Assembly (NCBI GenBank): GCA_000002445.1
Contig: CP000068.1
Coordinates: 640,001-704,000, forward strand
From: Trypanosoma brucei
Lineage: Eukaryota
Direction: 5' to 3'
Length of the DNA: 64,000 bases
The notes under the pieces are model-generated. The model made no database searches. It saw only the letters and a list, made by a program, of their open reading frames with translations, and was not told the origin of the DNA. The position numbers and the translations under genes were made by a program. Shown here piece after piece: positions 38,505 through 56,130 of the stretch (its first letter is position 1; every line of letters begins with the position of its first letter).

Positions 38505-40100
38505 CTACCTGGCCGCGAGGCGGTACTCGTCCTCGAGTTGCCTCAGGAGAGTTGGGAAACTCTCCTTCTCGTAGTCGTCAGGACAACCTCCGCTCACCCA
38601 CCGAATAACACCCTCGTGGTCTACAAGTATCACATGGGGCGAAAGGTAATTGCGTAGGCCCACCGATTTGTAAAACGGTACAAGCAACTTACTTCCAACA
38701 AACGTGGACGACGAGGTTATGAATCCATTGAGAAGGGACCTATCGTCAGAGCTTTCAGCACCTGTCGCCGTGGGAAACAAGGATCCTGCAAACCGCCGCA
38801 CATAAAGTTTGTGCACCCATCGATACTTGTAGACATCCATGCTCCGAAGTGAAAGCACACTAATTGGCATGTTACGGTCAACGGGGCATGCTAAGGTTTC
38901 ATTTCGGCAACGTCTCAACCCCCTTCCATGTTGGGCCTCTTCTGAGTTTACATGTCCCTCACCTTTTGCATTTTCTTTCGGAAGATAAGAGAGAAGTTTG
39001 GGGTTCAACACCGAATATGCAAGACGCCGCCACTCCAAATCGGCCTGTGCGCCTAGTTTCTGACCCAATTGTGAATAAATAACTACAGCAGGTCGCCGAA
39101 ACATCACCCTAGAGATCTCAGTAAGTTGTTGAGTGTCCGTTTCATCAAAAGAACGATTCAAATATAGCTTGCCAAGTGATTCCTCTGTAAGTTCAGCAGT
39201 GTTGTTGAAAAACGTCTTTTGCTTCATCAAGATACACAGCCTCTTCTCTGCCTCTTCATTGAGGGAACAGTATTGACTTACCCTTGCCGCTTTTAGGGTT
39301 GGAAAGAAGGGTACTGTATCGAACCCCAAAGATTCACACACAGTGCGGACCTTCTTTTGGCTAAGGGCAGCAGGGCCCCTCATAAGTTTACTGTTCTGGA
39401 TTATCTTCAACTCATTAAGGGCATGTTCGTTAAAGTAACGTAGCATCCGCTCCAGCTCATTGTCAACCGCGTATTCAATACCATACCTAAAATACTTGAG
39501 GACGAGGAAAACATCCCTTGACAGTATCGGTTTGTCTAGATCCATACCAACATCGCGGAAAACAAGCATCTTCTTTCTTTCACCTAGAACTTTTTGCTCC
39601 GCAGCACGGTTGTGGCGTCGTGCTACTTGTGACGTGGCTGACGGTCGACTTAAGCCAGCCGTTTCCAGATCCGTGAGCTTGCGCAGAAATTTATTTCCCA
39701 TGTGGTTTCTATCCAAACTATAGCTAACACGGGAGGTAGCCTTTGCAGTACCATTAACACCAAACGCCGTGGAACTCTCCTTCCTCGACATAACCCTCTT
39801 GTCCGCGCCTTGGTGGTGGCTGTACTGGACCCTCGCATCGTAGCTTTCCCTGGTAGCAGCATCCTTGTCTCCGCGTTGGATCCCCAAAGTTGCAGAAGCG
39901 TTTGCAGTATCATCACCTGCAGTAATTCTTATGTCCCTCGTGCCACTGGTTGTGTTAGAACGTGAGCGTGTACTGCACAATCGTTTCGGTGTCACAAAAC
40001 ATTGAATTACACACCGACCGAGATCTGACCGCCTGCAACACAAATCCGCCTGGATGTGTACGTTTGCATTCATCAGCGCACGCCTCTCCAGCATGTTCAC
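38505..40100 (-). CDS. Hypothetical protein (531 aa)
   Basis: Long ORF in cluster orientation. It is the last gene of the leftward cluster, i.e. nearest the strand-switch region. No recognised domain. Confidence 0.5.
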   Translation of the reverse strand: MNMLERRALMNANVHIQADLCCRRSDLGRCVIQCFVTPKRLCSTRSRSNTTSGTRDIRITAGDDTANASATLGIQRGDKDAATRESYDARVQYSHHQGADKRVMSRKESSTAFGVNGTAKATSRVSYSLDRNHMGNKFLRKLTDLETAGLSRPSATSQVARRHNRAAEQKVLGERKKMLVFRDVGMDLDKPILSRDVFLVLKYFRYGIEYAVDNELERMLRYFNEHALNELKIIQNSKLMRGPAALSQKKVRTVCESLGFDTVPFFPTLKAARVSQYCSLNEEAEKRLCILMKQKTFFNNTAELTEESLGKLYLNRSFDETDTQQLTEISRVMFRRPAVVIYSQLGQKLGAQADLEWRRLAYSVLNPKLLSYLPKENAKGEGHVNSEEAQHGRGLRRCRNETLACPVDRNMPISVLSLRSMDVYKYRWVHKLYVRRFAGSLFPTATGAESSDDRSLLNGFITSSSTFVGSKLLVPFYKSVGLRNYLSPHVILVDHEGVIRWVSGGCPDDYEKESFPTLLRQLEDEYRLAAR

Positions 40101-42939
40101 TTTCTCTATATGTGTTTGTTTGTGTGTTTGAGGATGACAAGTGGTAGTGTTTTCAATGCGTGACCATGTTAACGAATTACAGTTAAAGTGCTATCAACGA
40201 GGGCACTTCCAGCGATGTAACACGCACATCTTCTACGATAGATTGCTAAAAGGATTTTATTTTTAAGGGCACGACAATGATCATATAAAACGAGAAACAG
40301 CATGCTCTTTCAGATGATACTGACAGAATAAGTGGAGAGGAGTACCAAAAAAGTCACAGAAAGAGCGCTGACCAGCAAAGGATGACGAAAAAAATCAATA
40401 CAAACGACTAAGTACCGGAGAGATTCACAAATACACACGCAAAACGCGCTTTGTATCACTTATACGCTTTCATGCGTGCTTTGCTCGTGAGGTCCAGAAA
40501 TAAAGCAAAAATTATACGCGGTGACATCACTCAATAGGAAACAATCTGAAACGGCTGCTAATAGTGTTCACGACAGCGATAGCGAAGCAATGGCGTAACA
40601 ACCTTCACAAAGAGCGGTTGGGATCATTTAAAAATGCGCACAGACACACCAAATCATGGTGGTGAGGACCAGTGTAAAACCACCCACTCTGGTAATCACA
40701 CCAAGGAAATTTAGTTCCATGGGTAAAATACAATAACAGAACCATCACACCCCTCACGGTCACACTTCAAGGGGGTTACGTGGAGGAAACCATACTAGAA
40801 ACCGTGGTATGCGCAGAATGATGCTAATGAACAGTAGAACCAAAAAAAAAGTAGCACTCATGACCCGCCTCGAGGGTACACACCTTCTCGAAAACTCACG
40901 TGCCACGTTAGAATGACAGTGCAACTACCCACGGGGGCAGAACGGCAAACATAAATAAGTACAAGGAGTTCTATCGCAAAAAATTCCGAAATAACCCCTA
41001 ATGCACTATTTGACAAAAATAAACAATGATGCAGTAATTACAAAAAAAAACAGCAACACTCCCCATACACACTAGCTTAAGGAGCATTCGATTATAAACA
41101 CAGCGGTACAGTGGTCAAAAGGAACAAAAAGTGAAATACTACTTAGGGTCCGTTATAAGGAATAGTGGAAACGCACCGATATTTTAACCAATATACCAGA
41201 ACAAAAAACTTCAAAATAAAGAAAAAATACATCCAACAAACGCTTGGCACACCAAATGGAGAAATTGGAGATCGCAAGCAACCCTCTCATGCTTTTCTAA
41301 ATACGGCTAATCAATCAAAAAAGCAAACACCCCATAGTCCGTTTCTGGTCCCCTTACGTCTTGCAGAAGGAAATTATGAAGATCATCAAAATATTTACGA
41401 GGGTTGTCGGAAACCCCACGGTAATGACATCTTTAGGCACCAAAAACTCCTGGGAGCAGCACGCACTTGCCCCAAGAAATAACGAAAACGCAAAAAACAC
41501 AAAAGATTCTCAGACAACTACTCCCACAATTTTATAAGCCTTAAAACCTGCGATACGGAGAGGAAGGTCCTGGTCCACCCGCTCCCTGTCCCTTGAAAAA
41601 GCTGTTTACGTGACCACTTTCTTTGTACGCTCATATGCATAAGCTAACATTGCCCTTACTAACTCCATTAATCCACAGGCAATCGCCTCAGACCACACGG
41701 CCGCGAAAAGGAAAATGGTCGCAAGAACGGCAAAGCCAATAGGTACGCGGTGTATCTTGGGGGTTCAGCCACCGCGTAACCGCGGCTGATGCCCACATTC
41801 ACTACAGACGTGTGCCCAACCCTCCGAGCAATATGATAAGGAGACTACCTCTAACACGTCAGCCTGTTCGAACGGATCACCTTCAACTTCGCCAGCAACG
41901 AGACACAATGACCCTGGCGGAAAACAGCTGCCTTTTCATTTAAAGGGGTGCATCGGCCATAGCGCAGCACACCACCGCCTGTTCTCCCACTACTGCCCGC
42001 CTACTGAAGGACAGTCGCGTCCCGAGGCCACGCTCAGTCGACGATAATACCTCTGCGAAGAGAGCAAATCCACAGCCGGGCGGAGACCATCACACATCCC
42101 GTGCCCCCAGAGGGGCGGTCCTGCGACCAGCAACATCGAACCTGACCCCTGCACCGACCCCTGTTCCATTTCTCTCTGCCTTTCCACCCACACCCGTACC
42201 TCATGCGCGATACCTCGGTTTCCTAAAGGGGATCGCCCCGACCCCCAGGAACATCCGACTCCAAATGTGGCCCTAGGGCCCGGCACCTCCAGTTTTAGAG
42301 GAAGCGGATCATCGCAACGTTCAGAGGGCGAAAATAAAAAAAAAGTCACCAGCCTCGTCCCCCGGAAGATGTGGCCTTGAGCTCACGCTGAAAAAGACCC
42401 GCTACCTACGATAACTCAGCGCTTTCTTCGAACCCCACTAGCACACACCCGTTTCGCTCGGCAATCCTCACTGCTGATGTATCGAAAAGGAGTGCCTCCT
42501 CCAAAGAAAACACCACCACACCCTACTCTTTAAGACTTCGCCTTCCGGAGACATGATTTTTCCTGGATGGCGGACGCCGATTTGCCCACTGCATCGGCGC
42601 TATGGGGACGCGTGCTGGGGGCCCTAAGGCGGGTGAAAGTTCTGGGGAAACGGAAAGTTTGGCCTTCCGAAAAATGAAAGACGGCGGCGCCGGCACCCCG
42701 GGTTTGCCATAAGAAAACATCGAACCTTTATTTTTCTTTTAACCCCCGCATCATTGAGGGCGTTTCGCCGCACGACACCACCGGGGCGGCGCCGTGTCGG
42801 TGGTGAAATGTTAGTGGGGCGTTTAGCGCGTGCCAAGTGGGGTGAGGTTATCCAATTTGGAAAGGTGCATACCTGGTGGGGTGGGGTTGTCGATAGGCAG
42901 TCCTCGGAGGGTCTCGTTGTCCGCATCAGTCATGGCGTA

Positions 42940-42953
42940 GCATTGTGAGAATT
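42940..42953. repeat. Target-site duplication (left copy) of the L1Tc insertion
   Basis: gcattgtgagaatt directly precedes the T11 run (element A-tail). The identical 14-mer follows the element 5' end at 48214-48227. Confidence 0.75.
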
Positions 42954-43222
42954 TTTTTTTTTGAATTTTCTTCGTGCCTTCGTGAGAGTTTCCCCCCACT
43001 GGCGCGGCCATCAGCCACCACCGTAGAGCCCTGAGATGCTATCGGTCTGGCGACTGTGGCAGAGTCTCCCTTTTTTATTCATCCTAACACACCCTCTATA
43101 ATTTTTGTTGTATTTCCGCATTTGAACGGAATACAGCAGATGGGGCGAGAAGCCTCCCACCCCGGACTCTCCAAAAGATGTCAATTGGCAATCCTTTTTT
43201 TTTGATTTTTGTTATTCGTTTA

Positions 43223-44143
43223 TTATTCTCTCTCCCTCTTTCTGTTTCTGTTGCTTGTTGATTGCATACCTCCTCTGTCTCTGAGGGTGTCTGGACTATT
43301 CCTGCGTCCGGTGCTTTTCCTGCTAGCTCCACATTCGGCAATAAGGGGGAAAGTTGCAGAAGGGAGAGTGGGTTGTATGACTGTTACATTGAATGAGGAC
43401 TTCACCTGCGGCCGGCCCCGTTCAACCGCAATGAGAAACTGCGCCAGCCTTTTGGAGAAGCATATATCCTGCACACACTCACCTTCTACCGCAAACCTGA
43501 CACGTAACTCCTTCAAACCTAGACAGCTCATCGGGTGCAGCGACGTTTCTTCGCAGTCGCCGCGTTGGCTGGTAACAGCGCACTCTACCTTCATACCGTG
43601 CATCTTCTTTTGATGTAGGGTGAGGCCAGTTTTGCTAGCACACTGCCTTCCGCATGTCGTGCACACCAACATGGATGCGTTTGTATGTGAGGAATTAGTG
43701 GCACACAATTTTGTGCTTTTGCTGCATTTAAGCTCGACTCCCTCACCTTTGTGGAAAGCCTTACAGTGTCGGATGAAGGAGTCCCTGCAACTGAGCACTT
43801 TTTGGCACACACCACACCGCACCTCGCCTTTCCCCGGGACGTCAACATTTCCCTCACTGGCACGCTTACGAGGGAATTGCACCACCACCACGGTACCGTC
43901 TTCCGTCACTATGCTCTTATGTTTGAATTTCTGGTGTAGTGACAGGGAAGAGCGTGTACCGAAGCTCGCCTCGCACAGGTCACATTGAAACGGCAGCTTC
44001 CGTGTATCCTGAGGGGCTGGCGCTGCTGGGGCTCTACCATCTCCTTGTACTGAGTCCTCGTTCTCTCGCCCCCTTTTCACGCGGCAACTACCGCTGCCTA
44101 TGCCATGTATTGTTCTAAGGTGGTGTAATAGTCGGCCTGGCAC
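43223..44143 (-). pseudogene. L1Tc C-terminal C2H2 zinc-finger (nucleic-acid chaperone) segment
   Basis: Three C2H2 fingers: FQCDLCEASFGTRSSLSLHQKFKH, VRCGVCQKVLSCRDSFIRHCKAFHKG and LVCTTCGRQCASKTGLTLHQKKMHG. In a different frame from the RNase H segment. Confidence 0.7.
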
Positions 44144-45636
44144 ATTCTAATTTGGAGGCACAGAGGGTACAATGAAGCACCTGCGGTCTCATCAAAACTC
44201 GTGTGCTTCGATGGTAAAGGAACGATCGCCACCACTGGAGGGGGCTCCGGGGGGATGTCCACTGCAGGTGTTGCATCGCCGTATTTGATCCTCCGGATGG
44301 CATCAGCTCGCACAAAGCCATGTTTGTTTACCATATGCGTTACAGCACTCGAGCGGCATTGGTATGTGGCATCATATTCCGTACATTTGGTCGGTTCGGA
44401 GGTTCTCTGAAGAGTGCGTGTCGCAACAGATGGGGTTGTTTGTGTTTGTATTGTTGTTCCTATCACTGCATGTTGCGGATTGCACCATCGGCACTGTGGA
44501 GGCACACTCGGGTTGATCTTTCGCAACATCCATCCATAGTGTCTTGAAGACCCAACCCGAAAGCGTGCCAATACCGTTTCTTCTTCCCTCGTTAGTTCTT
44601 CCTTATGTTTTGTTGGAAAGTGATTGCCCGTGATACCAAACCTATGAGTGTTCTCATGGACTTCTTCCGACCTAAGCACTCGCTTCGCATAAGCAATGAT
44701 GTCGGGGATCCATGTGTCTCGCAACTGTGGTAAATCTGCGGCCTTTTTGGCCATGTCATCACAAACCTCATTCCGTTTCACGCCACAATGGCCAAACACA
44801 AATTGCAGTCGGATACGTATCTTCCTTCTCTGAACTTGAAGCAGAAGCCTCCATAGTCGTCTTAGAATTGGGTCCGTTACGGCTAGGGGGCCTGTCTGCA
44901 GTGCTGTTAACATTGACAGCGAGTCAGAGAAGATGGACAACCTGCTCGGTGTGCTTCTGTGTGCCGGAAGCCATTTCAGCAGCCGTTGCAGTCCTATCTC
45001 TAATGCTACGCATTCCGCTCTGTAACTGCATGAGAGTTCCCCTGCTCCGGTCTTGGGTGCGCAAATCAGCGTGTTGTTTCTATAGAGCAGGGCAGCTGCT
45101 CCGGACTTCTCACCGAGGGACACGGATCCATCAGTCCACAATTCGTAGTGCTCTCGCCGCGGTGGCTCCTTCCCCCTCCGTGCAAAATGCCGTGCAATCC
45201 ACTTTTCGGAAGCTTCCCTTTTGACATCGTCAGGGTCATCAGCGCACACAGGCCTAATCTGCGTGTGAAATATCGGTCGGCAGCTGTGGCGGAGCGTCGA
45301 TGTCTCTAGTTGGTGCTCGCGTGGCTCAATGCGGAGGTGGGGGTAGGACCGCATGATGCGGGAATGTAGGGCTCTGAGTGGATGTTTGCTGTGGTATACT
45401 TCCTCAGCACTGCGCCGCAAACATCCGCCTCGTGACTCACACATCAGCATGAACTTCATGCTGCGCACAAGAGTGGTCGTCTTGAGTGGGAGGAGGTTTG
45501 CTTCCAGCAGAGAGTCCTCTTCGCGCGTCCCATGCGGTATGCAAGCTATGATGCAACTACCCTTGTGTTGTGCTGCTGCAAGGAGGTCGCGACTTCGTTC
45601 CGAAGCGTCCCAGTACCATACCTCAATGCCATACAT
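44098..45636 (-). pseudogene. L1Tc RNase H-containing segment
   Basis: ELWTDGSVSLGEKSGAAALLYR...ELSCSYRAECVALEIGL matches the RNase H fold motif (TDGS...E...AE). Separated from the RT segment by an in-frame stop. Confidence 0.65.
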
Positions 45637-45720
45637 GGTGTGTGCCTGTACGAGTGCTAGATAAAAAGCTCTCAGTACTTGTCGTCTTGGCCCCCATGTA
45701 TAAACTGAGATGGCTGTTAT

Positions 45721-47394
45721 CTACAGTAGTCGGAAGTCCATCTTGCGTCTCGTCTCGGCCGCATGTGTTGCCATCCCTTGCAGACACTGGAATGTTACTC
45801 CTAGAAGCTTCGGTGTCCTGTCAGCTCCTATTCTTTCGCCGTCCAGTCGTAATGTAAGGGGGTGGCGCTCTGTACACCCGAAGAGTGTGCACTTTGTTTT
45901 CGCTACATTGATAGACATGAAGTACTCTTTTGACCACTGTAACACCACGTTGAGGCCGCATTGTAGTGTGTGGTTGATGACATCCCTCTCTGTGTGCCTC
46001 GCAAGTAGCGTCAGGTCGTCTGCAAAGAATCCGTGCTGCAGTAACGGCACTTCTGCAAGGCGTTGGCTCAACGAGTTCATGACAATAATGAACATGATTG
46101 GGCCAAGGACAGTTCCTTGTGGCACTCCTCGCTCAAATGTTCTGCTTCTGGAAAGCCTTTCCCTGAGTCTCACTCTGCCAGTTCGGTTACTCAGAAATGA
46201 TACGCACCACTTCACAATGTGGGGTGATACCTTCATTTTGTGCATTTCCCTCGCAATTTTGTCGTGGTCTACTGTATCGAATGCCTTCTCGTAGTCGACG
46301 AATACAGCACCCGTACGATATTGGTGCGTGGGACGGCAGAGGGCAGCGCGGACGTGCAGCAGCTGTTCGAGCGTTGAGCATCCGGGGCGAAAGCCTGATT
46401 GCTGCGGCGTCAGCTGGGACTCAACAGTGTCTCTAAGTCTCGCGGCAATTATGCGCTCCATGACTTTGCAGAGACAGCTCGTGAGCGTCACAGGCCTGTA
46501 AGAATCGAGGTCCTCCGCCTTTTTTCCGGCCTTCAGGATGGGGATGATAACACCGGTCTTCCATGCAGGCGGCACGACTCCCGTTCGTAGGCTCTCACTG
46601 AATAGCCTCAGAACAACATTCAGCGCTGTTCTACCGAGATGTTGTATTGCCTCGTTGTATAAGCAATCAGGTCCGGCTGCGGATCCACTCGGTAGCAGTT
46701 TGATCGATCTCCGTAGTTCAGCCATCGTGATGGGACTGAACTCACTCGCTATCGTCTTTATGTGTGCTGGTGGGTGTGAGTTGGGGTGCCTTCTTGCGCG
46801 GGACGAGTACAGTTTAATGAACCTCTCAGCTTGACAGTAGTCCGTGATGGCCGCGTTATCAACAAGTACAGTCGGTGTGGTTAGTGGTCGTGGCGCATAT
46901 ACCTTCTTGACAATGTGCCAACTGCAGCGGTCTGACACCGCAAGTCTGGAGCATAGCGTGCTCCATCTCTTCTTTGTGGTACGGTCCAGAATCTGCTTAC
47001 GCGTGGCTACCAACTTTTCCCTTCGGTGGGAGGGTCCGCATCCAGCAATCTCTTCATCGAGTTTCGCGAGCGCAGGTATCCAATGTGGTGGCGTTGCTCT
47101 GCAGCCACGGGGGACGGATGCCTTCGTCGCAATGCGGATGGCGGAGCTCAATATCTGTTCCAGGGTGTTGACTTTCTTCTCTCTACCAATTTTCCTGCAG
47201 ACCTCGTCAACCTTGAGACGGAAATTCCTCCAGTCAGCTTTTAGCCATGCGTACATGGGCTTTTGAAGCCGCGGGCAACTCAGTGCATCTGTGTCGTCTC
47301 CAACGATAACGTCGAAAAATATGTGATGGTGATCGCTATCGGGAGAATACAGCGATGTCCACGTGTACACTGTGCAATTCCTTGACAGTGTCAC
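45721..47394 (-). pseudogene. L1Tc reverse-transcriptase segment
   Basis: RT motifs YRPVTLTSCLCKVMERIIAARL, FRPGCST, and the FADD box (LQHGFFADDLTLLA). Lies between the endonuclease and RNase H segments. Confidence 0.8.
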
Positions 47395-47460
47395 ATCAGG
47401 GGTGGACTCCCCGTGGTGGCGCGCGTACCTGGTGCACTCACCAGTGTTGCAGACCAGAAC

Positions 47461-48066
47461 CTAGTTGTCAATGCACCACTGTGTGAGGGTTTCATCCTTG
47501 GTATTTGATGGGCTCGCGCGATCCCATGCCAACGCGTGTGCGTTAGCGTCTGCACCGATGAGCTGGGCACTGTCAGTCGTCAGAAGCGTATCTAGGTCAG
47601 TTGCCGTGAAGGTGCGTTTTGGTGGGATGTATGCTGACGTGACGGTCAGCGCCGTTCCACGTGCAAGGTGAATTGTTGCATGCACTTGTTCAATGCGACC
47701 AACAACGGCCATACCGGTCTCGACTAGTAGGTCCTCCTTTACTAGTATTGGTACACCACCTTCTTTGCAGTTACGAGCTATTCCGTGATGTTGATAGCCA
47801 GCAACGCTAAAGCAAGCCGCCTCTCCAGGCGTCATCCTTGTCTCGCTCAACAGACAAAAGGCGATCCGCTCATCAACAAGGGTTTTGTGGAGTGCTAATC
47901 TCTTTCCTTGAGATAGCCCCGGCGCAGTTCCACTGCATCCCGCGCAACGACGGGCCGGGATTCTCTTCCACATCACCGGACAGCAGCATCTTACTGCGGA
48001 TGATACTGCTGATGGCACGCTGGCACGTGCCCAGGGGCCGACAAATGAAAAACGGTGTCCCAGCAA
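47461..48066 (-). pseudogene. L1Tc AP-endonuclease segment (interrupted)
   Basis: Sits immediately downstream of the 2A motif and upstream of the RT segment, i.e. where L1Tc carries its AP endonuclease. The ORF ends in an in-frame stop before the RT ORF. Confidence 0.6.
47951..47980 (-). other. 2A-like self-processing peptide motif (SGDVEENPGP) at N-terminus of L1Tc polyprotein
   Basis: Minus-strand translation gives ...KMLLSGDVEENPGPSLRG.... The canonical D(V/I)ExNPGP 2A motif sits upstream of the endonuclease, as in L1Tc. Confidence 0.75.
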
Positions 48067-48136
48067 GACGCTGCTGATCCCTGTGCTGTATGATGCCGTA
48101 GCCGGAGCAAAGCAGTGTTCCCCATGAAAGGAACGC

Positions 48137-48213
48137 CGCTGGCTCTTGGCTTCCCCCGATGATACGGGGTACTGGACCCTGGCACCACGTGGAGGTGGCC
48201 GGCATCGCCAGGG
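48137..48213 (-). promoter_or_regulatory. Pr77-like 5' hallmark of L1Tc/ingi elements (internal promoter / HDV-like ribozyme region in the literature)
   Basis: Reverse complement begins CCCTGGCGATGCCGGCCACCTCC...GTACCCCGTATCATCGGGGGAAGCCAAGAGCCAG, the conserved first 77 nt of L1Tc/NARTc/ingi. Confidence 0.7.
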
Positions 48214-48227
48214 GCATTGTGAGAATT
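48214..48227. repeat. Target-site duplication (right copy) of the L1Tc insertion
   Basis: gcattgtgagaatt immediately after ...ggcatcgccaggg (reverse complement of CCCTGGCGATGCC). Confidence 0.75.
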
Positions 48228-48610
48228 AATCCCACGCCACCACCCCTTGCTTGGAATGCGTCTCTTCAGGGTCCCTCGGCACGTTTTTTTTTTGTGGCGC
48301 CCCATTCCGTCGCGTTACTCAGTAAGTGGTGATATAACTGTAGTCACTTCAGATGCTTCCATGTAGCTGCGCGTTTTTCTTCGGTACTTTTTGGTTGGCA
48401 CGCTTATCTTCTGCCTGTTTCACTGCACTGCGAGAATCTGCGTGCTTTGTTGTAATTTTTGTACGCCACCCTCTGTCAATGCGATTGTTCCTAAAGTGTG
48501 GAGAGGCTTCGTTGCACGTGTGTCGTGCGAACGCTCAGTGCAACCACGCGCCTGAAAAGTCTTTCATGCTTCTAGACTTTGGTGATCCTATGCAGGGGGT
48601 TTGCTCCAGT

Positions 48611-48639
48611 TCTGCTTCCGTATTATTATTATTATTATT
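48611..48639. repeat. (TTA)n microsatellite
   Basis: gtattattattattattattatga. Confidence 0.85.
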
Positions 48640-50538
48640 ATGATCATTTGTTATGCCCTCTCTTTTGAATGTCGTTTCTTCATCATCTTGTCCTCGTTTC
48701 CTCGTTGCTCACAGTGTCTGCGGGCAGTTTCTGTCGACTCAAACGGCTACGTTGGAACTGACGTGCGTTCCGCACGCATTTAAGGTTCATGTAAGTCATT
48801 GGCACTTGTGCCATAGTCTCCTTCTCGTCGGTGAGGAAATTGAATGCTGTGCCCGTCTAGTGTGGCAGCCGTAGGGGGGCCCTGTTGTGACGTCGTATGT
48901 TGTTTACAACTGCTCTTTATGAGCCGCAACTGGAGTTCTTGAACCTCCGAGGGCTTGTGCGCTGTGGTGGCGACATAAAGAGGAGACCAAATTTCGCTCG
49001 GGGTTCAGTGTAGTTACCGTGTTCCAATGTAGCATCTCTGCTTGCGAATGGGGGAAAAGAACATGCGCCTCGTTTTCTCTCTCGCTCCGCACTAAAGCAT
49101 GAGGTGCTCTGACACCGGTGCCGTGCTATCCCTCTGTGCTTCTGCTTCCCTGAGCTATGCCCAGCTGCCTTTCCGTCTCGAGTTTTGGCACTGAAGCAGA
49201 CTTTCGCAAACCCTACAGCGTGCATGGCTTCCGCGCACCCATGCATAGCTATGCATTTTCTAGGGCTAGCGTTTCACTGTTCCTAGCTTGTCACCCCAAC
49301 TCCTTTTCCAGGGTCTAAACTAGGACGCGGGCGCGTGTTTGTTTTGATTTATGTGAGTGTTCGGGAGTGTCTGACGGAGGTTGCGTTGACGCGACGTGAC
49401 ATACTCCAAGTCAATGCTTTCAGGTTTTGATTCCCATTATTATCTAACCATGGAACCCGGGGAGGGAGGGGGGGGGGGCGTTTTGTCCCGCAACGATCGT
49501 GGAGCGGTAAAAAGCAAGGCGCTGCCATGGCGCCGCTGCGGGAGTGCGCCGTTGCGCGCTGTCTGGCACGCTCGTGGTGAATAGCGCGCGCTCATGAGCG
49601 CGTGAGGCCTTCTATTGTTCCGGCACCCCGCTACGCTGATACCAGCTGAATTCAGGGTTAGGAGCACCCATCAGCATGTCAAATGCTGCGGCGAGGTGGT
49701 GGGGAAAGTCTCTCCAGTTGGGGCTCCATCAGTTACAAGCTACCCGCTTACAGCGGCTGACTCCGTATAGAAAATTATCACTGCGTTTCCGCGCCGCGTT
49801 GGAAGCGTTGCCAACAGACATGGAGACGTCAAGTCTCTCCCAGATTCAGACAAAAAATCGAAAAAAAGAACAGCCAGGCTAAAAAAAAAAAAATTGGCAC
49901 ATTAATAGATAGGAGATAGGAGATAAATGCTGTCAACAATACACTCCATGTTAAACATTTCCTTCTCCACCCAGAAGAGGTGGGTAAAATACCAACGTTG
50001 CCCCTAACGACCCTATATGGGGGTGGCACCAACCGTGCAGTTGAAACCAATATCAACTTGATGGGAAGAGCCTTCCCTGAAATCGATATCTTAAAGAGTA
50101 AAAGGCTGTCGAGGCCGTACACGAGACTTACCAACGCAGCTAGTGTTGTCTCGTTTTATTCCGTGTCTCCCATCAATGCGAGATGTTCACATATGACATT
50201 CGATGCCACACTATTGACCGGTGGACGGTGCGAGATTGCATCACCACAGCCCTTCCCTCAATAAGTACACCAAGTCCAATACAAACAAGATAATGAAGCA
50301 CACCTTGCCTTTCCACATCACGGCCGATAGCGTTTGGTACCCAGTTTTCTTTCGATATAGCGAATTAAAGAAAGTAGCACCATCGTTGACCAGCACAAAA
50401 CGATCAGGAAGTTACAAAGACAGAATCAACTAAACAGCCCAAAAACGACAAAGTTCCTTATTTTCACATACAGCACAACCCAAAGAAAAGCACCCCTACT
50501 ACGTTTCCAGGAGCAGCAGAGGTTTGTTGCCGCCTACC

Positions 50539-51210
50539 GCTGTCAAAAGCATTCCATGTTATAATTTGTTTGCCGCGCTTGGTCTCGTGATGCTGAGTGA
50601 TTGTGCCTGTGTTTGTGGTTTCACCCCCTCTTGTCACGCCTTCCGCGGTTGGTGTGATTCCATTTGTGTTTGTTTCATGTGTTTTGTTTCCCTCACTACA
50701 TTGTGTGGTGAGGTTTGCTACTCTTATGATGAGTGCGCCTTGTGCCGCGTGCGTGTGTAGTGCTCATTTACCACTTGCTGCTTTCCCTTAACCTATTTCT
50801 GGATGAAAGAGACTTTACTCTTGTTTTTACCCACGTTCAAGCCGACACGGATAACAATGGCCACCTGCCCTAAACACCTGTTCGGGAAGTACCATCTAAA
50901 GAGTTTTAATGGCAAAAGCGCCTTGGAGGGCGAACTGGCCGGTGTGACACTGGAGCTTGGTGAAGAAGACGGTCGTGTCACAGTACGCGCGAAGGCGGGA
51001 AATGCGATGAGTGGTGTGTTGAAGTATGAAGGTGGGATGCTCACCGGTCCCTTGATGTCTACAATGATGATGCCTCCCCCTGCTGTCTTGAAAGTAGAAC
51101 GAACCCTCGTGTCCGGTTTTTCCAGCGGTATGCATGCGCTCCGTGAAGGCTCTTCTCTTACGCTTTCGCATAAGACAGACACGATGGTGTTTGAGGCCGT
51201 GGAGTAAACT
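50539..51210 (+). repeat. Truncated, diverged leading copy of the tandem-array unit (5' flank plus small-protein gene only)
   Basis: Alignable with 52026-52687, 56208-56869 and 60390-61051 from aagcattccatgttataatttgtttgccgcgcttggtctcgtgatgctgag through the stop of the small ORF. Flanks differ on both sides. Confidence 0.85.
50803..51207 (+). CDS. Small single-domain protein, diverged paralogue (array copy 0); candidate FABP/calycin-like beta-barrel domain
   Basis: Probable start at second Met (50857): MATCPKHLFGKYHLKSFNGKSALEGELAGV. About 116 aa from that Met. Differs from copies 1-3 in the C-terminal third (MSTMMMPPPAVLKVERTLVSGF vs ISTIMLSPPALMEVESAFSSGF). Confidence 0.6.
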   Translation: MKETLLLFLPTFKPTRITMATCPKHLFGKYHLKSFNGKSALEGELAGVTLELGEEDGRVTVRAKAGNAMSGVLKYEGGMLTGPLMSTMMMPPPAVLKVERTLVSGFSSGMHALREGSSLTLSHKTDTMVFEAVE

Positions 51211-52039
51211 TGTTTCTCGACATGCAGTTACCCTTTTATTTTCTACTTGTGTTGCCACTACACTTTCGTGTTTGTGGTCGGTGTTAGCGAACACTACCTT
51301 TGTTTACCACTTAGTGTTATGTTATTTATTTTTGAAATCGGGTTATTATTTTTATTTTTTTTTTCCAGGGTGTAGATATTTGAACCCTAATAAACGTCAA
51401 CGTTTTGTTAATTTATACGGGGGTACGTGTTTTTTTATTTGTTATCGAGGTATAGGCCTTCTGTCATGGTGACTACTGGACATTTTCGCTTCCTCTTTGC
51501 TGGATGCTCCCTGAATACTCAACGTAATAGTATGAAGAAAAGTGAGATGGTAGGCGGGGAATAAGTGTATGTAAGGAGTATATATTGTACGGACATCGGT
51601 AGTGGTGATGATGTTGAGATTCTCTCTCTTAAAGGTTATATCTTTGTATCAACTGATTCGGTACATAAGATCAGATTTTAAATACTATCTTCTATTTATT
51701 ATTTATTATGGAGTGTGATAATTAAAATGTAAGGGCAAATTATCTAACTGCTTATGATCAGTTGATTAGGTAGCGAGTAGTTTAGATAGTATCTTATATT
51801 TAGGAGGTGAGGTGTCCATCTGTAGTAATGGAAGAAATTGTTTGTAAGGATCGACGGCAGTGCAGATAAAACAAATATCGAAGTATATATATATGTATAG
51901 AAGTTTGGCTCAGCGACAGAGATACAATATTCTGCAAAAATAAGATATAAATATTTCATCATTACCCTACCATGCACAGATTATCGATGTGTATCCAACA
52001 AGGTGGGCGCGTGCGACTCCTTCAAGCATTCCATGTTAT

Positions 52040-52279
52040 AATTTGTTTGCCGCGCTTGGTCTCGTGATGCTGAGCGATTGTGCCTGTGTTTGTGGTTTCA
52101 CCCCCTCTTGTCACGCCTTCCGCGGTTGGTGTGATTCCATTTGTGTTTGTTTCATGTGTTTTGTTTCCCTCACTACATTGTGTGGTGAGGTTTGCTACTC
52201 TTATGATGAGTGCGCCTTGTGCCGCGTGCGTGTGTAGTGCTCATTTACCACTTGCTGCTTTCCCTTAACCTATTTCTGG
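52040..52279 (+). promoter_or_regulatory. GT/pyrimidine-rich upstream region of the small-protein gene (putative polypyrimidine tract / trans-splice acceptor zone)
   Basis: tgtgtttgtggtttcaccccctcttgtcacgccttccgcggttggtgtgattccatttgtgtttgtttcatgtgttttgtttccctcac directly upstream of the ORF in every unit. Trypanosomatid trans-splicing needs such tracts (established). The site itself is not mapped. Confidence 0.3.
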
Positions 52280-52684
52280 ATGAAAGAGACTTTACTCTTG
52301 TTTTTACCCACGTTCAAGCCGACACGGATAACAATGGCCACCTGCCCTAAACACCTGTTCGGGAAGTACCATCTAAAGAGTTTTAATGGCAAAAGCGCCT
52401 TGGAGGGCGAACTGGCCGGTGTGACACTGGAGCTTGGTGAAGAAGACGGTCGTGTCACAGTACGCGCGAAGGCGGGAAATGCGATGAATGGTGTGTTGAA
52501 GTATGAAGGTGGGATGCTCACCGGTCCCTTGATATCCACTATTATGCTCTCGCCCCCTGCTTTGATGGAGGTGGAGAGTGCTTTCAGTTCTGGATTTTCC
52601 AGCGGTATGCATGCGCTCCGTGAAGGCTCTTCTCTTACGCTTTCGCATAAGACAGACACGATGGTGTTTGAGGCCGTGGAGTAA
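52280..52684 (+). CDS. Small single-domain protein (array copy 1); candidate FABP/calycin-like domain
   Basis: Same gene as 56462..56866 with two aa differences (K/E, P/V). Probable start at MATCPKH (52334). Confidence 0.6.
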   Translation: MKETLLLFLPTFKPTRITMATCPKHLFGKYHLKSFNGKSALEGELAGVTLELGEEDGRVTVRAKAGNAMNGVLKYEGGMLTGPLISTIMLSPPALMEVESAFSSGFSSGMHALREGSSLTLSHKTDTMVFEAVE

Positions 52685-53110
52685 AGGTGACGGGCATACG
52701 TTAGTGTGTGTTTTGTTTATACGGTGATGTAAAAAATGACTTAAATTTTCATCTGTTTTTCGGTTATATTGTAGGTGCATATTCAACTTTCTCAATACCT
52801 AATGGCGGTACTATTAGTATTATTTTTTTTAAATACTTTCCTTGTTCACGAATATGTGATATCTACTGATTCGTATGAGCACTTTTGTTTTTTTATGCGT
52901 CTTCCTGTCTTCGCTAGCGTTTTGTTGTTGATGTATTTCTTGATTTGCTTTTCGTTTCTTTCTTTATGCTCTATACCTTTTTTTGCCTTTCCCTTGTATC
53001 CGCATATTCTCGTCCTCTGGTCTCTACTCCGCCATATTTATTCATGTAGTGCATGTAGTACTGGTTTGCATCCCGTGGAAACCTCTGCTTTTGTGTAGCA
53101 CCCGCGATTT

Positions 53111-54541
53111 ATGGCATCAGACAATGAGTCCACTGTCGAGGTGAGGGAGGCTCGTGACACCGAGGAGTACGATGCGCAGGCTGCTGCTCGTGGGCTGTGT
53201 GACAAGGCATGTGACATAAAGAGCCTTCTACATGGGCACGTTGAGTCGACGCGTGCCCTCGAAAGGGTTGTTGGGGAATTTTGCACTCGCGACATCGCTG
53301 AAGAGGATGCCTTCCGGAAAATCTCTCTCGACGTTATGCATGCCGAAATGCGGGCGCTACGGGACCTTCACTACGTTGCATTTTCCCAGCGGTGGGCAGA
53401 GGTAGAAAAGGGCTCCGCTGCAGAGGAGGTCACCAGCCTACCTTCAGCGGATAGGAGTGTTGGAAGTTGCGTGTCCCACCTTCTGACCTCGCTTTGTGAG
53501 GGAAAGCCTGATGCAACTTTTAGCCTTTCAGAGTATTTTGGTGTCGCTGACGTGCTTATGGAATGGCGCTCGTTAACTCCAGCATCACAGGAACAGTTGG
53601 ATATTCTTCTTCTGTCAATAACCAGGAGCGTGGAGGACATTTCATCATGTGTCCTGCTGCTGAATGGGGTTTTATATACACCATCTGATTCATTTGATTG
53701 TTGTGAACTCACTCGACGGGAGCTCACCGCGATAATTGGAAGTGGGGGACCCGCTTCCGCGGAAGAGGCACTTGTTGGATGGCTTAATTTTATTGTGAGA
53801 CGCTCGTTACTCAACCAGACCCTTCTCCAGAGGCTGATGAGTTCGACCATCGAGTTTCGGAGAAGTGATCTTTGCCTACAGGGCGACGGCGCAGACGTGC
53901 TGGTTGTAGTCGACCACAGGCGGTTGTTGAACTCCGCTGTCTTTCGTGGGTTTTTCTTTTCTGGGGAGTTGCGTGGTGTAGAGGCTATTGGGGCGCAGGT
54001 GAACTTGATGTCAGTATTATTTGCAGGCAACGGCAGCGGAGATCAGCTTGACATAGAGAAGTGTATCGCCGACATTTTCCGCGCTTTATGGGAGCAGCAG
54101 GAACTGCTTTCATGTAAGTGGAAGAACGTTACTGTGACCCTCGCTGTTCAAGCCAGGAAGGACGTCGGAGCCGGCGCTCAAACCAAGTTGATGGACTTCG
54201 TTGTGCTCGATCTTCGCCCCCTGTCGCCGAACATTCCTTTTCAGTGGCACTTTACATGGGGCGAGGTCTGTGCACTAGGCCAGCTCAGTACGAATGACGG
54301 AGATAGAGCACGACCCCTGGACATTCCTGTTTTCAAGACGACTCGTGTAGCTGTAGCCTCTCTGGGGCCTTATGATAAACTTTCACGCATAATGTTCCCT
54401 TCGATTAACGAGTATTTACGTCTTACGCGGAAAGAGCCACCATCTGTAGCCCCAGTCGCCTACGCTGCCGTCGCGGCGGCGCTTGTCGTCGGGGGATTTA
54501 TTGTTGGAAGCTGCATACTCGGTTCCCGGCGAAGACGATGA
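53111..54541 (+). CDS. 476-aa protein with single C-terminal transmembrane segment (tail-anchored-like), array copy 1
   Basis: No N-terminal signal peptide (MASDNESTVEVREARDTEEYD). Single hydrophobic segment AYAAVAAALVVGGFIVGSCILG, 5 residues from the end, followed by SRRRR-stop. Repeated at +4182 and +8364 with one substitution (T/A). Confidence 0.7.
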   Translation: MASDNESTVEVREARDTEEYDAQAAARGLCDKACDIKSLLHGHVESTRALERVVGEFCTRDIAEEDAFRKISLDVMHAEMRALRDLHYVAFSQRWAEVEKGSAAEEVTSLPSADRSVGSCVSHLLTSLCEGKPDATFSLSEYFGVADVLMEWRSLTPASQEQLDILLLSITRSVEDISSCVLLLNGVLYTPSDSFDCCELTRRELTAIIGSGGPASAEEALVGWLNFIVRRSLLNQTLLQRLMSSTIEFRRSDLCLQGDGADVLVVVDHRRLLNSAVFRGFFFSGELRGVEAIGAQVNLMSVLFAGNGSGDQLDIEKCIADIFRALWEQQELLSCKWKNVTVTLAVQARKDVGAGAQTKLMDFVVLDLRPLSPNIPFQWHFTWGEVCALGQLSTNDGDRARPLDIPVFKTTRVAVASLGPYDKLSRIMFPSINEYLRLTRKEPPSVAPVAYAAVAAALVVGGFIVGSCILGSRRRR

Positions 54542-54789
54542 GCAGTATCCGCCTCTGCTTTTTTCTGTTCATCTTGTTTTATTGACTTTAGAGCCATATT
54601 TAGGCTCCGCTATGCGTCCTTGTTGGTTAGAGGTTTAGTATTGTTGTACCTGACTCTGTGACTGATGGTGGGTGCCGCACCGTATCTGCGGCATGGGGTG
54701 CTTGCGTGAGTGAGGATCCACACTTATTTGACCGCTGTTTGCTATGAAATGTTTCCCTCCTTTCCTACTTGTAGCCAAGTTAATATTGC

Positions 54790-56130
54790 ATGATGGATAT
54801 TACTGCGTTGTGCGGAAACTATCGGTTGTGTGAGATTGACGGAAAGACGTGCTCCGAGGAAGTGTTTATTGCTCTAGAGGCGTCTGGTGGTGGTGTTGAG
54901 GTTGTTGCCATGGTGGGCAACACCCTGTGCGGGCGCGCTTGTGTGAATGGGGACAGGATTAGTGCGAACCTTACTAGCACTATGAGGCAGGTGGAAGAAG
55001 AGATGATGAGGATTGAAAGCCTGCTGACATGCGGGTTCAAGGCCGGGTTTACCTGTGAGCAGAGTGACATCATACTGACGCTGACTGGAGAGCAGAGTGT
55101 CTTCACATTGGAGCGTGATGTATTATGTGATATAAAGTTTGGTGAGTATACCCTCTGTGAGTTCAATGGGGAACCCGTGGCTTCGGACGAGATGGTGCTC
55201 ACCCTGCTCCCCGCTGTGGTAGATGGTGCCCTTGTGATTGCACAGTTCAAAAACTCTCTCCGCGGGGAGCTGGAGCTTCGCAATGGTCGTCTCCGCGGCG
55301 TTATTGCGTCGACGATGTGCGAGGTGGATGGTTCTTTGAAGTGCGCGGAGGAAGCGTTTTTGTCAGCTACCAGGGGTGATGGCATAAAAGTGTGCTCTGA
55401 CGACCACCGGCTTGTGCTTAAGGACGACCACAATGCGTTCGTTTATGTGCTGCGTCCAGCAATTCCAGAGAACCTTGTGAGCGAGTACTTACTGAAGAGC
55501 TTCAATGGCGAGTCTGTAGAGGCTGAGAGGCGTGTGATGTTCCGCTTTTCCCAATCAGCTGACGGTGTCGGTACGGATGTTGTGGCGAGTGTTGCCAATA
55601 CGATCAGGGGGAAGGTAAGAGTGGATGACGGAAAGTTAAAATCGAAGGTGATGTCATCACGAAGGAAAGGGAATGAGTCGGAGATGCGATTTGAGAATGC
55701 TCTGAAGGAAGGGTTCAAGGCTGGGTTTTCGTGGTCTCTGGACGACACGGTGCTGACTCTTGAGTGCGACGGGAACCGCCTCATCTTCGTGAAAGTTGCC
55801 GCTGTGCCGTGCGAAAATGGTAGGCCGGGGTATATTGGTGATAAGGTTTCAAGATGCTTTAAGGCCCACGACGATGCTCGAGTGTACCGTATCATCAACA
55901 CTGTGGAATCGAAGTGGGCATTTTACAATGACACGACCGAATACAATTTTAATGTGTCAGTGACTTTTGGGCGGAAATCAAAGGTACGCGGTCTGGCCAA
56001 CACGTCAATTGAGACAAATGAGGAAGGCTTGACGGTTGCCAGCGTGTCAGTCGCCCCTGGTGCGACGGAGATGTTCGTTGCTGGGGATGTAAACGGGTAC
56101 AAGTGCTCCTATGACGCAGTGCACCAGTAG
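54790..56130 (+). CDS. 446-aa multi-domain protein built from 3-4 repeats of the small-protein domain, array copy 1
   Basis: Internal repeats of about 110 aa, each beginning with a small-protein-like motif: residues 1- MMDITALCGNYRLCEIDGKTCSEEV, 118- GEYTLCEFNGEPVASDEMV, 231- SEYLLKSFNGESVEAERRV. GFKAGF recurs in repeats 1 and 3. Confidence 0.7.
   Translation: MMDITALCGNYRLCEIDGKTCSEEVFIALEASGGGVEVVAMVGNTLCGRACVNGDRISANLTSTMRQVEEEMMRIESLLTCGFKAGFTCEQSDIILTLTGEQSVFTLERDVLCDIKFGEYTLCEFNGEPVASDEMVLTLLPAVVDGALVIAQFKNSLRGELELRNGRLRGVIASTMCEVDGSLKCAEEAFLSATRGDGIKVCSDDHRLVLKDDHNAFVYVLRPAIPENLVSEYLLKSFNGESVEAERRVMFRFSQSADGVGTDVVASVANTIRGKVRVDDGKLKSKVMSSRRKGNESEMRFENALKEGFKAGFSWSLDDTVLTLECDGNRLIFVKVAAVPCENGRPGYIGDKVSRCFKAHDDARVYRIINTVESKWAFYNDTTEYNFNVSVTFGRKSKVRGLANTSIETNEEGLTVASVSVAPGATEMFVAGDVNGYKCSYDAVHQ

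What the first reader, a model, noticed from the sequence alone, without database searches (positions are those of the whole stretch)
42940..48227. Degenerate L1Tc-type retrotransposon with intact hallmarks (Pr77, 2A, 14-bp TSD) inserted in the strand-switch region
All hallmarks are present: the 5' CCCTGGCGATGCC... Pr77 sequence, the SGDVEENPGP 2A motif, endonuclease/RT/RNase H/C2H2 order, an A-tail, and perfect 14-bp direct repeats (gcattgtgagaatt) at both ends. These show a bona fide retrotransposition event rather than recombination. The coding capacity is broken by two in-frame stops and two frameshifts, so the copy is non-autonomous. The perfect TSD nonetheless suggests a relatively recent insertion.
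Basis: partly seen in the sequence, partly recalled or inferred. Interest (0 to 1): 0.6.

Follow-up and report, generated by a model that had tools for sequence, protein, structure and literature searches.

The report
Broken ingi retrotransposon of Trypanosoma brucei
This is an ordinary, already catalogued, full-length but coding-dead copy of ingi, the LINE-like retrotransposon of Trypanosoma brucei and sister of T. cruzi L1Tc; it sits between two diverging gene clusters on chromosome 5 and predates the split of the T. brucei subspecies.

Summary
A 5,260-bp non-LTR retrotransposon lies on the minus strand at 42954-48213. It has the CCCTGGCGATGCC 5' end, an in-frame 2A motif (SGDVEENPGP), endonuclease/RT/RNase H/C2H2 order, an A-tail, and an exact 14-mer at both ends. 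The naming needs correction: it is Tbingi (T. brucei ingi), not L1Tc.

- It is 5.26 kb long (ingi 5.25 kb, L1Tc 4.9 kb).
- Its RT is 95% identical to a T. brucei protein.
- Its first 79 nt are only 76% identical to L1Tc Pr77, the published ingi/L1Tc value.
- The upstream flank matches the published Tbingi target signature 9/10, and only if the duplication is the canonical 12 bp. The other two bases are A's that merge with the poly(A) tail.
- The L1Tc target signature fails (3/11).

The copy carries two CAG>TAG stops and three +1 frameshifts, not two.

The same insertion with the same repeat is present in T. b. gambiense and T. b. equiperdum, and one frameshift is shared. It is therefore not recent, and no empty site was found.

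Its upstream 100 nt are identical to a published TREU927 chromosome 5 INGI/RIME entry. It is already known and of low interest.

The parts
42954..48213 (-). Full-length Tbingi element, 5,260 bp by the 14-mer boundaries. Under the 12-bp duplication model the poly(A) tail extends to 42952.
   Evidence: collinear over 1-5260 with three other T. brucei ingi copies at 95.0-95.4% identity.
48214..48225 (-). Upstream copy of the 12-bp target-site duplication (sense TTCTCACAATGC). 48226-48227 are the two target A's that extend the repeat to 14 bp.
42940..42951 (-). Downstream copy of the 12-bp target-site duplication.
48226..48247 (-). Target-recognition motif upstream of the first-strand nick (sense AGGGGTGGTGGCGTGGGATTAA). 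Together with the duplication it matches the Tbingi/TbRIME signature AxxxxxxxTxxxGTxGGxTxxx^xTxTxxTxxxxx at 9/10 positions.
   Evidence: The signature is quoted from PMC3820030. Only one other distinct sequence in the 128,000 positions scanned reaches 9/10.
42952..42962 (-). Poly(A) tail: 11 A's with a 12-bp duplication, 9 with a 14-bp one.
48135..48213 (-). The 79-bp 5' signature (Pr77 hallmark) of the ingi/L1Tc clade.
   Evidence: 76% identity to the L1Tc Pr77 oligonucleotide printed in PMC1874656, which reports 76.6% for ingi/RIME.
48203..48205 (-). First ATG (element nt 9-11), in frame with 2A and, after repair, with the whole 1,659-codon ORF.
47951..47980 (-). 2A-like peptide SGDVEENPGP. 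DVEENPGP is encoded at 47974-47951.
47320..47646 (-). AP-endonuclease domain (Pfam Exo_endo_phos_2 match), interrupted by the first TAG.
   Evidence: 43.5 bits, E 3.5e-11 on the repaired ORF; sub-threshold when the domain is split by the stop.
45790..46518 (-). Reverse transcriptase domain (RVT_1).
   Evidence: E about 1e-45; 95% identity to a T. brucei equiperdum reverse transcriptase.
44737..45150 (-). RNase H domain.
   Evidence: E about 1e-9.
43598..44171 (-). Four C2H2 zinc-finger motifs (repaired residues 1345, 1407, 1463, 1514). The first is broken by the third frameshift.
47920..47923 (-). Frameshift 1: one extra G in a G-run (GGGG where the other copies have GGG), private to the window's copy.
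47461..47463 (-). In-frame stop 1: TAG where all other copies have CAG; private.
45721..45723 (-). In-frame stop 2: TAG where all other copies have CAG; private.
44444..44449 (-). Private 6-bp in-frame insertion (ACAAAC duplication).
44207..44210 (-). Frameshift 2: one extra A (CGAAG where paralogues have CGAG). It is shared with the orthologous copies in L001 and L002 and absent from four paralogous sequences.
44142..44147 (-). Frameshift 3: one extra base (TTAGAATGTG where the others have TTCGCA-GTG); private.
43223..43225 (-). Natural stop (TAA) of the long ORF. The 3' untranslated part runs from 43222 to 42963.

Best explanation
The feature is one full-length copy of Tbingi, the autonomous LINE-like retroposon of Trypanosoma brucei (ingi4 subclade of the ingi/L1Tc clade). 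It lies in the divergent strand-switch region of chromosome 5. UPF1 is the second gene of the minus-strand cluster to its left. A tandem array encoding a 476-aa protein and a META/DUF1935 protein runs on the plus strand to its right.

How it got there (inferred from the anatomy and from established knowledge of the family): target-primed reverse transcription. The element-encoded AP endonuclease recognised the motif A-N7-T-N3-GT-N-GG-N-T and nicked three bases downstream of it. A full-length RNA was reverse transcribed from its poly(A) end. A second nick 12 bp away produced the 12-bp duplication TTCTCACAATGC.

How an intact copy works (known for relatives, not tested here): the 79-nt 5' signature serves at the DNA level as an internal Pol II promoter and at the RNA level as an HDV-like ribozyme. 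Translation from the ATG at nt 9 gives a short leader that the 2A sequence separates from the endonuclease/RT/RNase H/zinc-finger polyprotein.

This copy is dead for coding. It has two CAG>TAG stops and three +1 frameshifts. Removing the three extra bases restores one ORF of 1,659 codons. One frameshift is shared with the orthologous copies in T. b. gambiense and T. b. equiperdum. The insertion therefore predates their divergence, and it was already defective then or on arrival. Because both ends are intact, it could at most be mobilised in trans, as RIME is.
For: - Anatomy: 5,260 bp, 5' signature, 2A, domain order, A-tail and repeat.
- Family identity: 95% amino-acid identity to a protein named 'reverse transcriptase [Trypanosoma brucei equiperdum]', with Tbingi proteins of T. 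theileri and T. grayi next at 59%. It is collinear over its full length with a non-orthologous T. brucei copy, at 95.0% identity.
- Length: 5.26 kb, against the published ingi 5.25 kb and L1Tc 4.9 kb (PMC2323293).
- 5' end: the first 79 nt are 76% identical to L1Tc Pr77. This equals the published ingi-versus-L1Tc figure of 76.6%.
- Target site: the Tbingi target signature matches 9/10, and only in the 12-bp register. TSDs of this clade are reported as a conserved 12 bp.
- Host: the flanks are 98-99.8% identical to chromosome-scale contigs of two T. brucei subspecies assemblies, which carry the element at the same site with the same repeat.
- Prior record: the upstream 100 nt are 100/100 identical to the flank of an INGI/RIME entry for NC_007278 (TREU927 chromosome 5) in the supplement of PMC4660242.
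- Lesions: placed by alignment to six other sequences. The repaired ORF has 1,659 codons with all three enzymatic domains above the Pfam cut-offs.
Against: - No curated Tbingi consensus or GenBank ingi sequence could be aligned directly. Family assignment rests on other genomic copies, one named protein and published descriptions.
- The RIME-A and RIME-B halves were not checked against a RIME sequence.
- Promoter, ribozyme and 2A activities are inferred from relatives. One study cited in PMC1874656 found no promoter activity for the ingi/RIME 5' end.
- The single-base lesions could in principle be assembly errors.
- The organism names of FN554968.1 (T. b. gambiense DAL972 chromosome 5) and NC_007278 (TREU927) come from my own knowledge of those accessions and from the cited dataset, not from a tool label.
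Confidence: 0.95

Rival explanations
1. It is an L1Tc element in the strict sense: the T. cruzi retrotransposon.
For: It shares the clade hallmarks: the CCCTGGC... 5' signature, in-frame 2A, APE/RT/RNase H/C2H2 order, A-tail and duplication.
Against: - The length is 5.26 kb, not 4.9 kb.
- Pr77 is only 76% identical, whereas L1Tc and NARTc share it at 100%.
- The L1Tc/NARTc target signature GAxxAxGaxxxxxtxTATG^A matches 3/11.
- The nearest protein is from T. brucei at 95%.
- The flanks are T. brucei chromosome 5.
Confidence: 0.01
2. It is a DIRE, a long-extinct degenerate ingi/L1Tc-related element, rather than a member of the still-active ingi family.
For: The coding capacity is broken in five places.
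Against: - DIREs are described as highly degenerate vestiges that share only the 5' signature.
- This copy is 95% identical over its full length to other ingi copies.
- Removing three bases and two stops restores a 1,659-codon ORF with intact domains.
- Its private divergence is about 2.1%, within the about 4% median reported for active TbRIME.
Confidence: 0.02
3. The copy is really intact and autonomous, and the stops and frameshifts are sequencing or assembly errors.
For: Frameshift 1 lies in a homopolymer G-run. Four of the five lesions are private to this assembly.
Against: - Two lesions are C>T substitutions, not homopolymer errors.
- One frameshift is reproduced in two independent assemblies.
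- The orthologous copies carry their own, different disruptions.
- 111 private substitutions show ordinary neutral decay.
Confidence: 0.02
4. The element reached this site by recombination or segmental duplication rather than by retrotransposition, and the repeat is fortuitous.
For: ingi/RIME elements are reported to recombine and cause rearrangements (PMC2854126).
Against: - The exact 14-mer lies precisely at both element ends (0.03 expected by chance).
- The insertion is full length from nt 1 to the poly(A) tail.
- The family-specific endonuclease motif sits in the correct register.
- No other ingi/RIME sequence is present in the window.
Confidence: 0.01

Closest known systems
Tbingi (ingi) of Trypanosoma brucei, ingi4 subclade; partner of the 0.5-kb non-autonomous RIME
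   Same: Length 5.26 kb. 79-bp 5' signature. Single long ORF (when repaired) with 2A, AP endonuclease, RT, RNase H and C2H2 fingers. A-tail. 12-bp duplication. Tbingi-specific upstream target motif at 9/10. 95% identity to other T. brucei copies. T. brucei chromosome 5 flanks. Location in a strand-switch region, the compartment with the highest retroposon density in T. brucei (PMC2323293).
   Different: Nothing qualitative. This copy has two stops, three +1 frameshifts and a 6-bp insertion, so it is a pseudogene copy. The repeat reads as 14 bp because two target A's merge with the poly(A) tail.
L1Tc of Trypanosoma cruzi
   Same: Same clade and architecture: Pr77 hallmark, in-frame 2A, APE/RT/RNase H/nucleic-acid-chaperone C2H2 region, poly(A) tail and a 12-bp duplication.
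   Different: L1Tc is 4.9 kb. Its Pr77 is only 76% identical to this 5' end. Its target motif (GAxxAxGaxxxxxtxTATG^A) is not present here (3/11). It lives in a different host species.
DIRE (degenerate ingi/L1Tc-related elements)
   Same: Long ingi-related elements that cannot encode their own machinery.
   Different: DIREs are ancient, heavily mutated vestiges. This copy is about 2% from its relatives and only five lesions away from an intact ORF.
Human LINE-1 and other APE-type non-LTR retrotransposons
   Same: Target-primed reverse transcription, target-site duplication, poly(A) tail, APE plus RT, many dead copies, and trans-mobilisation of short partners (Alu; RIME here).
   Different: ingi has a single ORF with an N-terminal 2A, an RNase H domain, a fixed 12-bp duplication, a 5' signature with reported promoter and ribozyme roles, and a longer sequence-specific target motif.

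Membership tests
Tbingi (T. brucei ingi, ingi4 subclade) | Length about 5.25 kb | tested here: met
   5,260 bp between the repeats. The published size is 5.25 kb (PMC2323293).
Tbingi (T. brucei ingi, ingi4 subclade) | 76-79 bp 5' signature starting CCCTGGC | tested here: met
   Present at 48213-48135 (minus strand). It is 76% identical to L1Tc Pr77, equal to the published ingi/RIME value of 76.6%. It is near-identical to three other T. brucei copies.
Tbingi (T. brucei ingi, ingi4 subclade) | One long ORF encoding AP endonuclease, RT, RNase H and C2H2 fingers | tested here: met
   A 1,659-codon ORF is restored after removing three inserted bases and reading through two TAGs. The three enzymatic domains are above the Pfam cut-offs, and four C2H2 motifs are present. 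As it stands, the ORF is broken.
Tbingi (T. brucei ingi, ingi4 subclade) | Conserved 12-bp target-site duplication | tested here: met
   The exact repeat is 14 bp. The 12-bp register is the only one that fits the target motif, and the extra AA abuts the poly(A) tail.
Tbingi (T. brucei ingi, ingi4 subclade) | Upstream target motif AxxxxxxxTxxxGTxGGxTxxx^xTxTxxTxxxxx | tested here: met
   9/10 specified positions match (7/7 upstream of the nick). Other registers score at most 7/10. Only one other distinct sequence in the window reaches 9/10.
Tbingi (T. brucei ingi, ingi4 subclade) | High sequence identity to other T. brucei ingi copies | tested here: met
   95.0-95.4% identity over 5,260 bp to three full copies, and about 94-95% to fragments. 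The RT is 95% identical to the T. brucei equiperdum protein P0001.
Tbingi (T. brucei ingi, ingi4 subclade) | Ends correspond to the two halves of RIME (RIME A and RIME B) | not tested
   No RIME sequence was available in the window or the fetched loci. The only indirect evidence is that the published dataset labels nt 1-294 of this very copy 'RIME A'.
L1Tc (T. cruzi) | Length about 4.9 kb | tested here: not met
   5,260 bp.
L1Tc (T. cruzi) | Pr77 sequence as in L1Tc/NARTc (reported 100% identical between the two) | tested here: not met
   61/80 aligned positions (76%) against the R77 oligonucleotide.
L1Tc (T. cruzi) | Upstream target motif GAxxAxGaxxxxxtxTATG^Axxxxxxxxxxx | tested here: not met
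   3/11 in the 12-bp register, and at most 5/11 in any register.
L1Tc (T. cruzi) | Resides in the T. cruzi genome | tested here: not met
   The flanks are 98-99.8% identical to T. brucei subspecies chromosomes, and 100/100 identical to a TREU927 chromosome 5 flank.
DIRE | Heavy degeneration: many stops and frameshifts, with little similarity beyond the 5' signature | tested here: not met
   Five lesions only, and 95% identity to other ingi copies over the full length.
2A 'ribosome-skipping' peptides | C-terminal motif D(V/I)ExNPGP in frame with the downstream protein | tested here: met
   DVEENPGP at 47974-47951 is in frame with the ATG at nt 9 and, once the private +1 G is removed, with the endonuclease. 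Cleavage activity is not testable here.
HDV-like ribozyme of the Pr77 hallmark (L1TcRz type) | Double-pseudoknot fold with self-cleavage at nt +1 | tested here: inconclusive
   No Rfam family matched. Nested MFE folding cannot represent the pseudoknot and gave z = -1.65. Activity of T. brucei LINE ribozymes is stated only as unpublished work in PMC4035085.

The most novel reading that the evidence does not exclude
Between subspecies, the orthologous ingi copies differ three times more (4.4-4.6%) than the non-coding DNA immediately around them (1.4-1.5%). The ordinary reading is that the element drifts at the genome-wide non-coding rate (95.4% identity published). The most novel reading not excluded has two parts:
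- The strand-switch DNA flanking the element is under purifying selection as transcription-start or regulatory sequence.
- The old, fixed ingi, which points the same way as the minus-strand gene cluster it heads, has been tolerated or co-opted there. Alternatively, its excess divergence reflects gene conversion from paralogous ingi copies.
Probability: 0.1. Interest if true: 0.35.

Novelty: already known. Interest (0 to 1): 0.1.

Why it matters
It matters little beyond correct annotation. The element belongs to a family described in 1987. This insertion is already listed in a published TREU927 catalogue, and retroposon enrichment in strand-switch regions is documented.

The useful outputs are corrections:
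- The right family name is Tbingi, not L1Tc.
- The duplication is 12 bp, not 14 bp.
- There are three frameshifts, not two.
- The insertion is ancient and fixed across subspecies.

There is also a small caution for users of the published catalogue. It labels this full-length copy 'RIME A', and its match stops at element nt 294, the position of the private frameshift.

Tried and rejected
- Rfam scan of 42500-48700 at E<=1 gave only a chance snoRNA hit (sR22, 21 bits against a 40-bit threshold). No ribozyme family matched.
- MFE folding of the first 78 nt of this copy, of the ortholog and of L1Tc Pr77 gave non-significant z-scores and cannot model a pseudoknot.
- The tRNA scan and tandem-repeat scan of the region found nothing.
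- BLAST of the element against the window found no second ingi, RIME or DIRE.
- The empty-site search found the left-flank gene only in two filled-site assemblies. The right-flank gene returned only a 4.2-kb contig with no upstream DNA. No empty site was found, but few strains were reachable.
- Gene conversion was considered as the cause of the excess divergence. 82 of 100 window-private alleles are absent from paralogous fragments, and private changes are spread evenly along the element. This favours ordinary mutation, but 18-19% of alleles are shared, so the question stays open.
- The key family paper (Bringaud 2009, PMC2756862) is not held. The recalled ORF length of 1,657 aa could therefore not be cited. 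The repaired ORF here has 1,659 codons including a private 2-codon insertion.
- L1Tc proteins did not appear among the protein hits, so no direct protein identity to L1Tc was obtained.
Full report
**1. What is in the sequence**

The element lies on the minus strand.

- In sense orientation it begins CCCTGGCGATGCCGGCCACC at 48213 and ends ...GAAAATTC(A)n at 42954.
- The 14-mer GCATTGTGAGAATT occurs exactly twice in the 64-kb window, at 42940-42953 and 48214-48227. The expectation from shuffles is 0.03.
- The body is 5,260 bp.
- Six-frame translation gives four long open segments on the minus strand.
- Pfam places Exo_endo_phos_2, RVT_1, RNase_H and C2H2 fingers in that 5'-to-3' order.
- SGDVEENPGP is encoded from 47980 to 47951, upstream of the endonuclease.

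**2. Which element it is**

Several independent lines point to T. brucei ingi.

- *Nearest protein.* The RT segment's best match among 5.8 billion proteins is 95% identical and is named 'reverse transcriptase [Trypanosoma brucei equiperdum]'. The next named hits are 'Tbingi protein' of T. theileri and T. grayi at 59%.
- *Flanking genes.* They encode UPF1, a DBR1-like phosphoesterase and a tandem array containing META/DUF1935 proteins.
- *Orthologous contigs.* An exact-sequence look-up of the nearest left-hand protein returned two chromosome-scale contigs.
  - One is FN554968.1. From my knowledge of the accession, this is T. b. gambiense DAL972 chromosome 5.
  - The other is CM010676.1 of GCA_003543875.1, the assembly that also carries the T. 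b. equiperdum protein above.
- *Flank identity.* The window is 98-99.8% identical to both outside the element.
- *Prior catalogue entry.* The 100 nt upstream of the element are 100/100 identical to the flank printed for an INGI/RIME entry on NC_007278. That record is T. b. brucei TREU927 chromosome 5, minus strand, in the supplement of PMC4660242. The window is therefore most likely TREU927 chromosome 5, and this insertion is already on record.
- *Length.* The published sizes are ingi 5.25 kb and L1Tc 4.9 kb (PMC2323293). This element is 5.26 kb.
- *5' signature.* Its first 79 nt are 76% identical to the L1Tc Pr77 oligonucleotide printed in PMC1874656. That paper gives 76.6% as the ingi/RIME-to-L1Tc similarity.
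- *Similarity to paralogues.* The element is collinear over its full length with a non-orthologous ingi copy on another T. b. equiperdum chromosome, at 95.0% identity.

**3. The duplication and the target site**

PMC3820030 states that duplications of this clade are a conserved 12 bp. It gives the Tbingi/TbRIME target signature as AxxxxxxxTxxxGTxGGxTxxx^xTxTxxTxxxxx.

- Sliding this pattern over the upstream flank gives 9/10 matches, including 7/7 upstream of the nick. This occurs only when the duplication is taken as 12 bp (TTCTCACAATGC).
- Every other register gives 2 to 7 matches.
- Only one other distinct sequence in both strands of the window reaches 9/10.
- The L1Tc/NARTc signature (GAxxAxGaxxxxxtxTATG^A, PMC5814959) matches 3/11.
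- The 'ingi6' signature matches 2/6.

The two additional bases of the 14-mer are A's in sense orientation. At the 3' junction they are indistinguishable from the poly(A) tail, which then has 11 A's. This supports insertion by the ingi endonuclease through target-primed reverse transcription. That last step is inferred from the anatomy and from family knowledge.

**4. The lesions**

I aligned the copy with its two orthologs (L001, L002), one full paralogue (L003) and three paralogous fragments (L004). Relative to all of these the window's copy has the following changes:

| Lesion | Window position | Status |
|---|---|---|
| +1 G in a G-run | 47923-47920 | private |
| CAG>TAG | 47463-47461 | private |
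| CAG>TAG | 45723-45721 | private |
| 6-bp in-frame insertion | 44449-44444 | private |
| +1 A | about 44208 | shared with both orthologs, absent from all four paralogous sequences |
| +1 base | about 44144 | private |

- That makes three frameshifts and two stops. The last two frameshifts are 64 nt apart, which explains why a reader would see only one.
- Deleting the three bases gives one ORF of 1,659 codons, from the ATG at element nt 9 to a TAA at 43225-43223.
- In the repaired ORF the endonuclease (43.5 bits), RT (155.9 bits) and RNase H (37.1 bits) all pass Pfam cut-offs. Four C..C...H...H motifs are present.

**5. Age**

- Both other assemblies carry the element at the same site with the identical 14-mer at both ends. 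The insertion therefore predates their divergence from the window's strain. The shared +1 A shows it was already defective by then.
- Site patterns over the element are star-like:
  - 111 changes are private to the window's copy (2.1%).
  - 84 are shared by the two orthologs.
  - 120 separate the paralogue.
- Of those 120, 107 could be checked against the L004 fragments. Most are private to the paralogue, so only about 17 can be derived changes shared by the three orthologs. The insertion therefore happened not long before the split, but before it.
- With about 2% divergence per lineage, 24 nt of duplication remain unchanged with probability about 0.6. A perfect duplication is not evidence of recency.
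- No empty site was found. Only two other assemblies could be reached.

**6. Context**

- ORFs of at least 180 aa from 1497 to 40100 are on the minus strand, apart from a few that overlap longer minus-strand ORFs. The gene array from 53111 onwards is on the plus strand.
- The element points the same way as the minus-strand cluster.
- This placement is typical. Strand-switch regions have the highest retroposon density in T. brucei, holding 23.4% of its retroposons (PMC2323293). PMC4035085 also notes the accumulation of mobile elements in these regions.

**7. How it works**

For an intact family member the following roles are reported:

- The 2A peptide separates an N-terminal leader from the enzymes (PMC5814959).
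- The protein carries out target-primed reverse transcription.

None of these activities can be tested here. One study cited in PMC1874656 found no promoter activity for the ingi/RIME 5' end. Rfam has no matching family, and nested folding is uninformative. This copy cannot make the protein. With intact ends it could only be a passenger of functional copies.

**8. An extra observation**

- Between the window and the orthologs, the element differs at 4.4-4.6% of sites. The adjacent non-coding DNA differs at only 1.4-1.5% (Fisher p about 1e-18).
- The published genome-wide non-coding identity between TREU927 and DAL972 is 95.4% (PMC2854126). The element therefore looks neutral, and the strand-switch flanks look unusually conserved.
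- Gene conversion from paralogues is a possible alternative. It is not favoured, because 82 of 100 private alleles are not seen in paralogous fragments and the changes are evenly spread.

**9. Verdict**

This is a correctly spotted but ordinary feature: a known, already catalogued, fixed and decayed Tbingi copy. The family name, the frameshift count, the duplication length and the 'recent' inference need correction. Novelty: already known. Interest: low.

Noticed in passing
window 53111-64000 (+); partial copies at 50547-51208 and 52024-52685: A tandem array of at least three units, period 4,182 bp. Each unit encodes a 476-aa protein without Pfam hits and a 446-aa META/DUF1935 protein. The units are about 99% identical. 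A 662-bp piece of the inter-unit spacer is duplicated upstream of the array.
   Followed up: partly
window 40095-42939 and 48228-50094, compared with 42954-48213: Non-coding strand-switch DNA flanking the element differs from the T. b. gambiense and T. b. equiperdum orthologs at only 1.4-1.5% of sites. The orthologous ingi copies differ at 4.4-4.6% (p about 1e-18). The element matches the published genome-wide non-coding divergence, so the flanks look constrained. Gene conversion among ingi copies is an untested alternative.
   Followed up: partly
window 47920-48213 (element nt 1-294): The published TREU927 INGI/RIME catalogue (PMC4660242, supplementary file 1) lists this insertion only as element positions 1-294 and labels it 'RIME A'. 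The match ends at element nt 294, the position of the private +1 G frameshift, so a full-length ingi appears to be misclassified there.
   Followed up: partly
window 53934, 58116 and 62298 (+): The only other sequence in the window that reaches 9/10 on the Tbingi target signature is CCGCTGTCTTTCGTGGGTTTTTCTTTTCTGGGGA. It is repeated once per unit of the tandem array, inside the 476-aa ORF. It is unoccupied here.
   Followed up: no
L004 4118-13263 (T. b. equiperdum CM010677.1): A cluster of rearranged ingi fragments. One copy has an internal deletion of element nt 322-572. It is followed by two inverted partial copies, which suggests recombination between ingi elements at that locus.
   Followed up: no
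window 42624-42926 (-): A 100-aa ORF immediately 3' of the element is called as a gene in the T. b. gambiense assembly (L001 7168-7470). It has no Pfam hit and is probably a spurious call in the strand-switch region.
   Followed up: no
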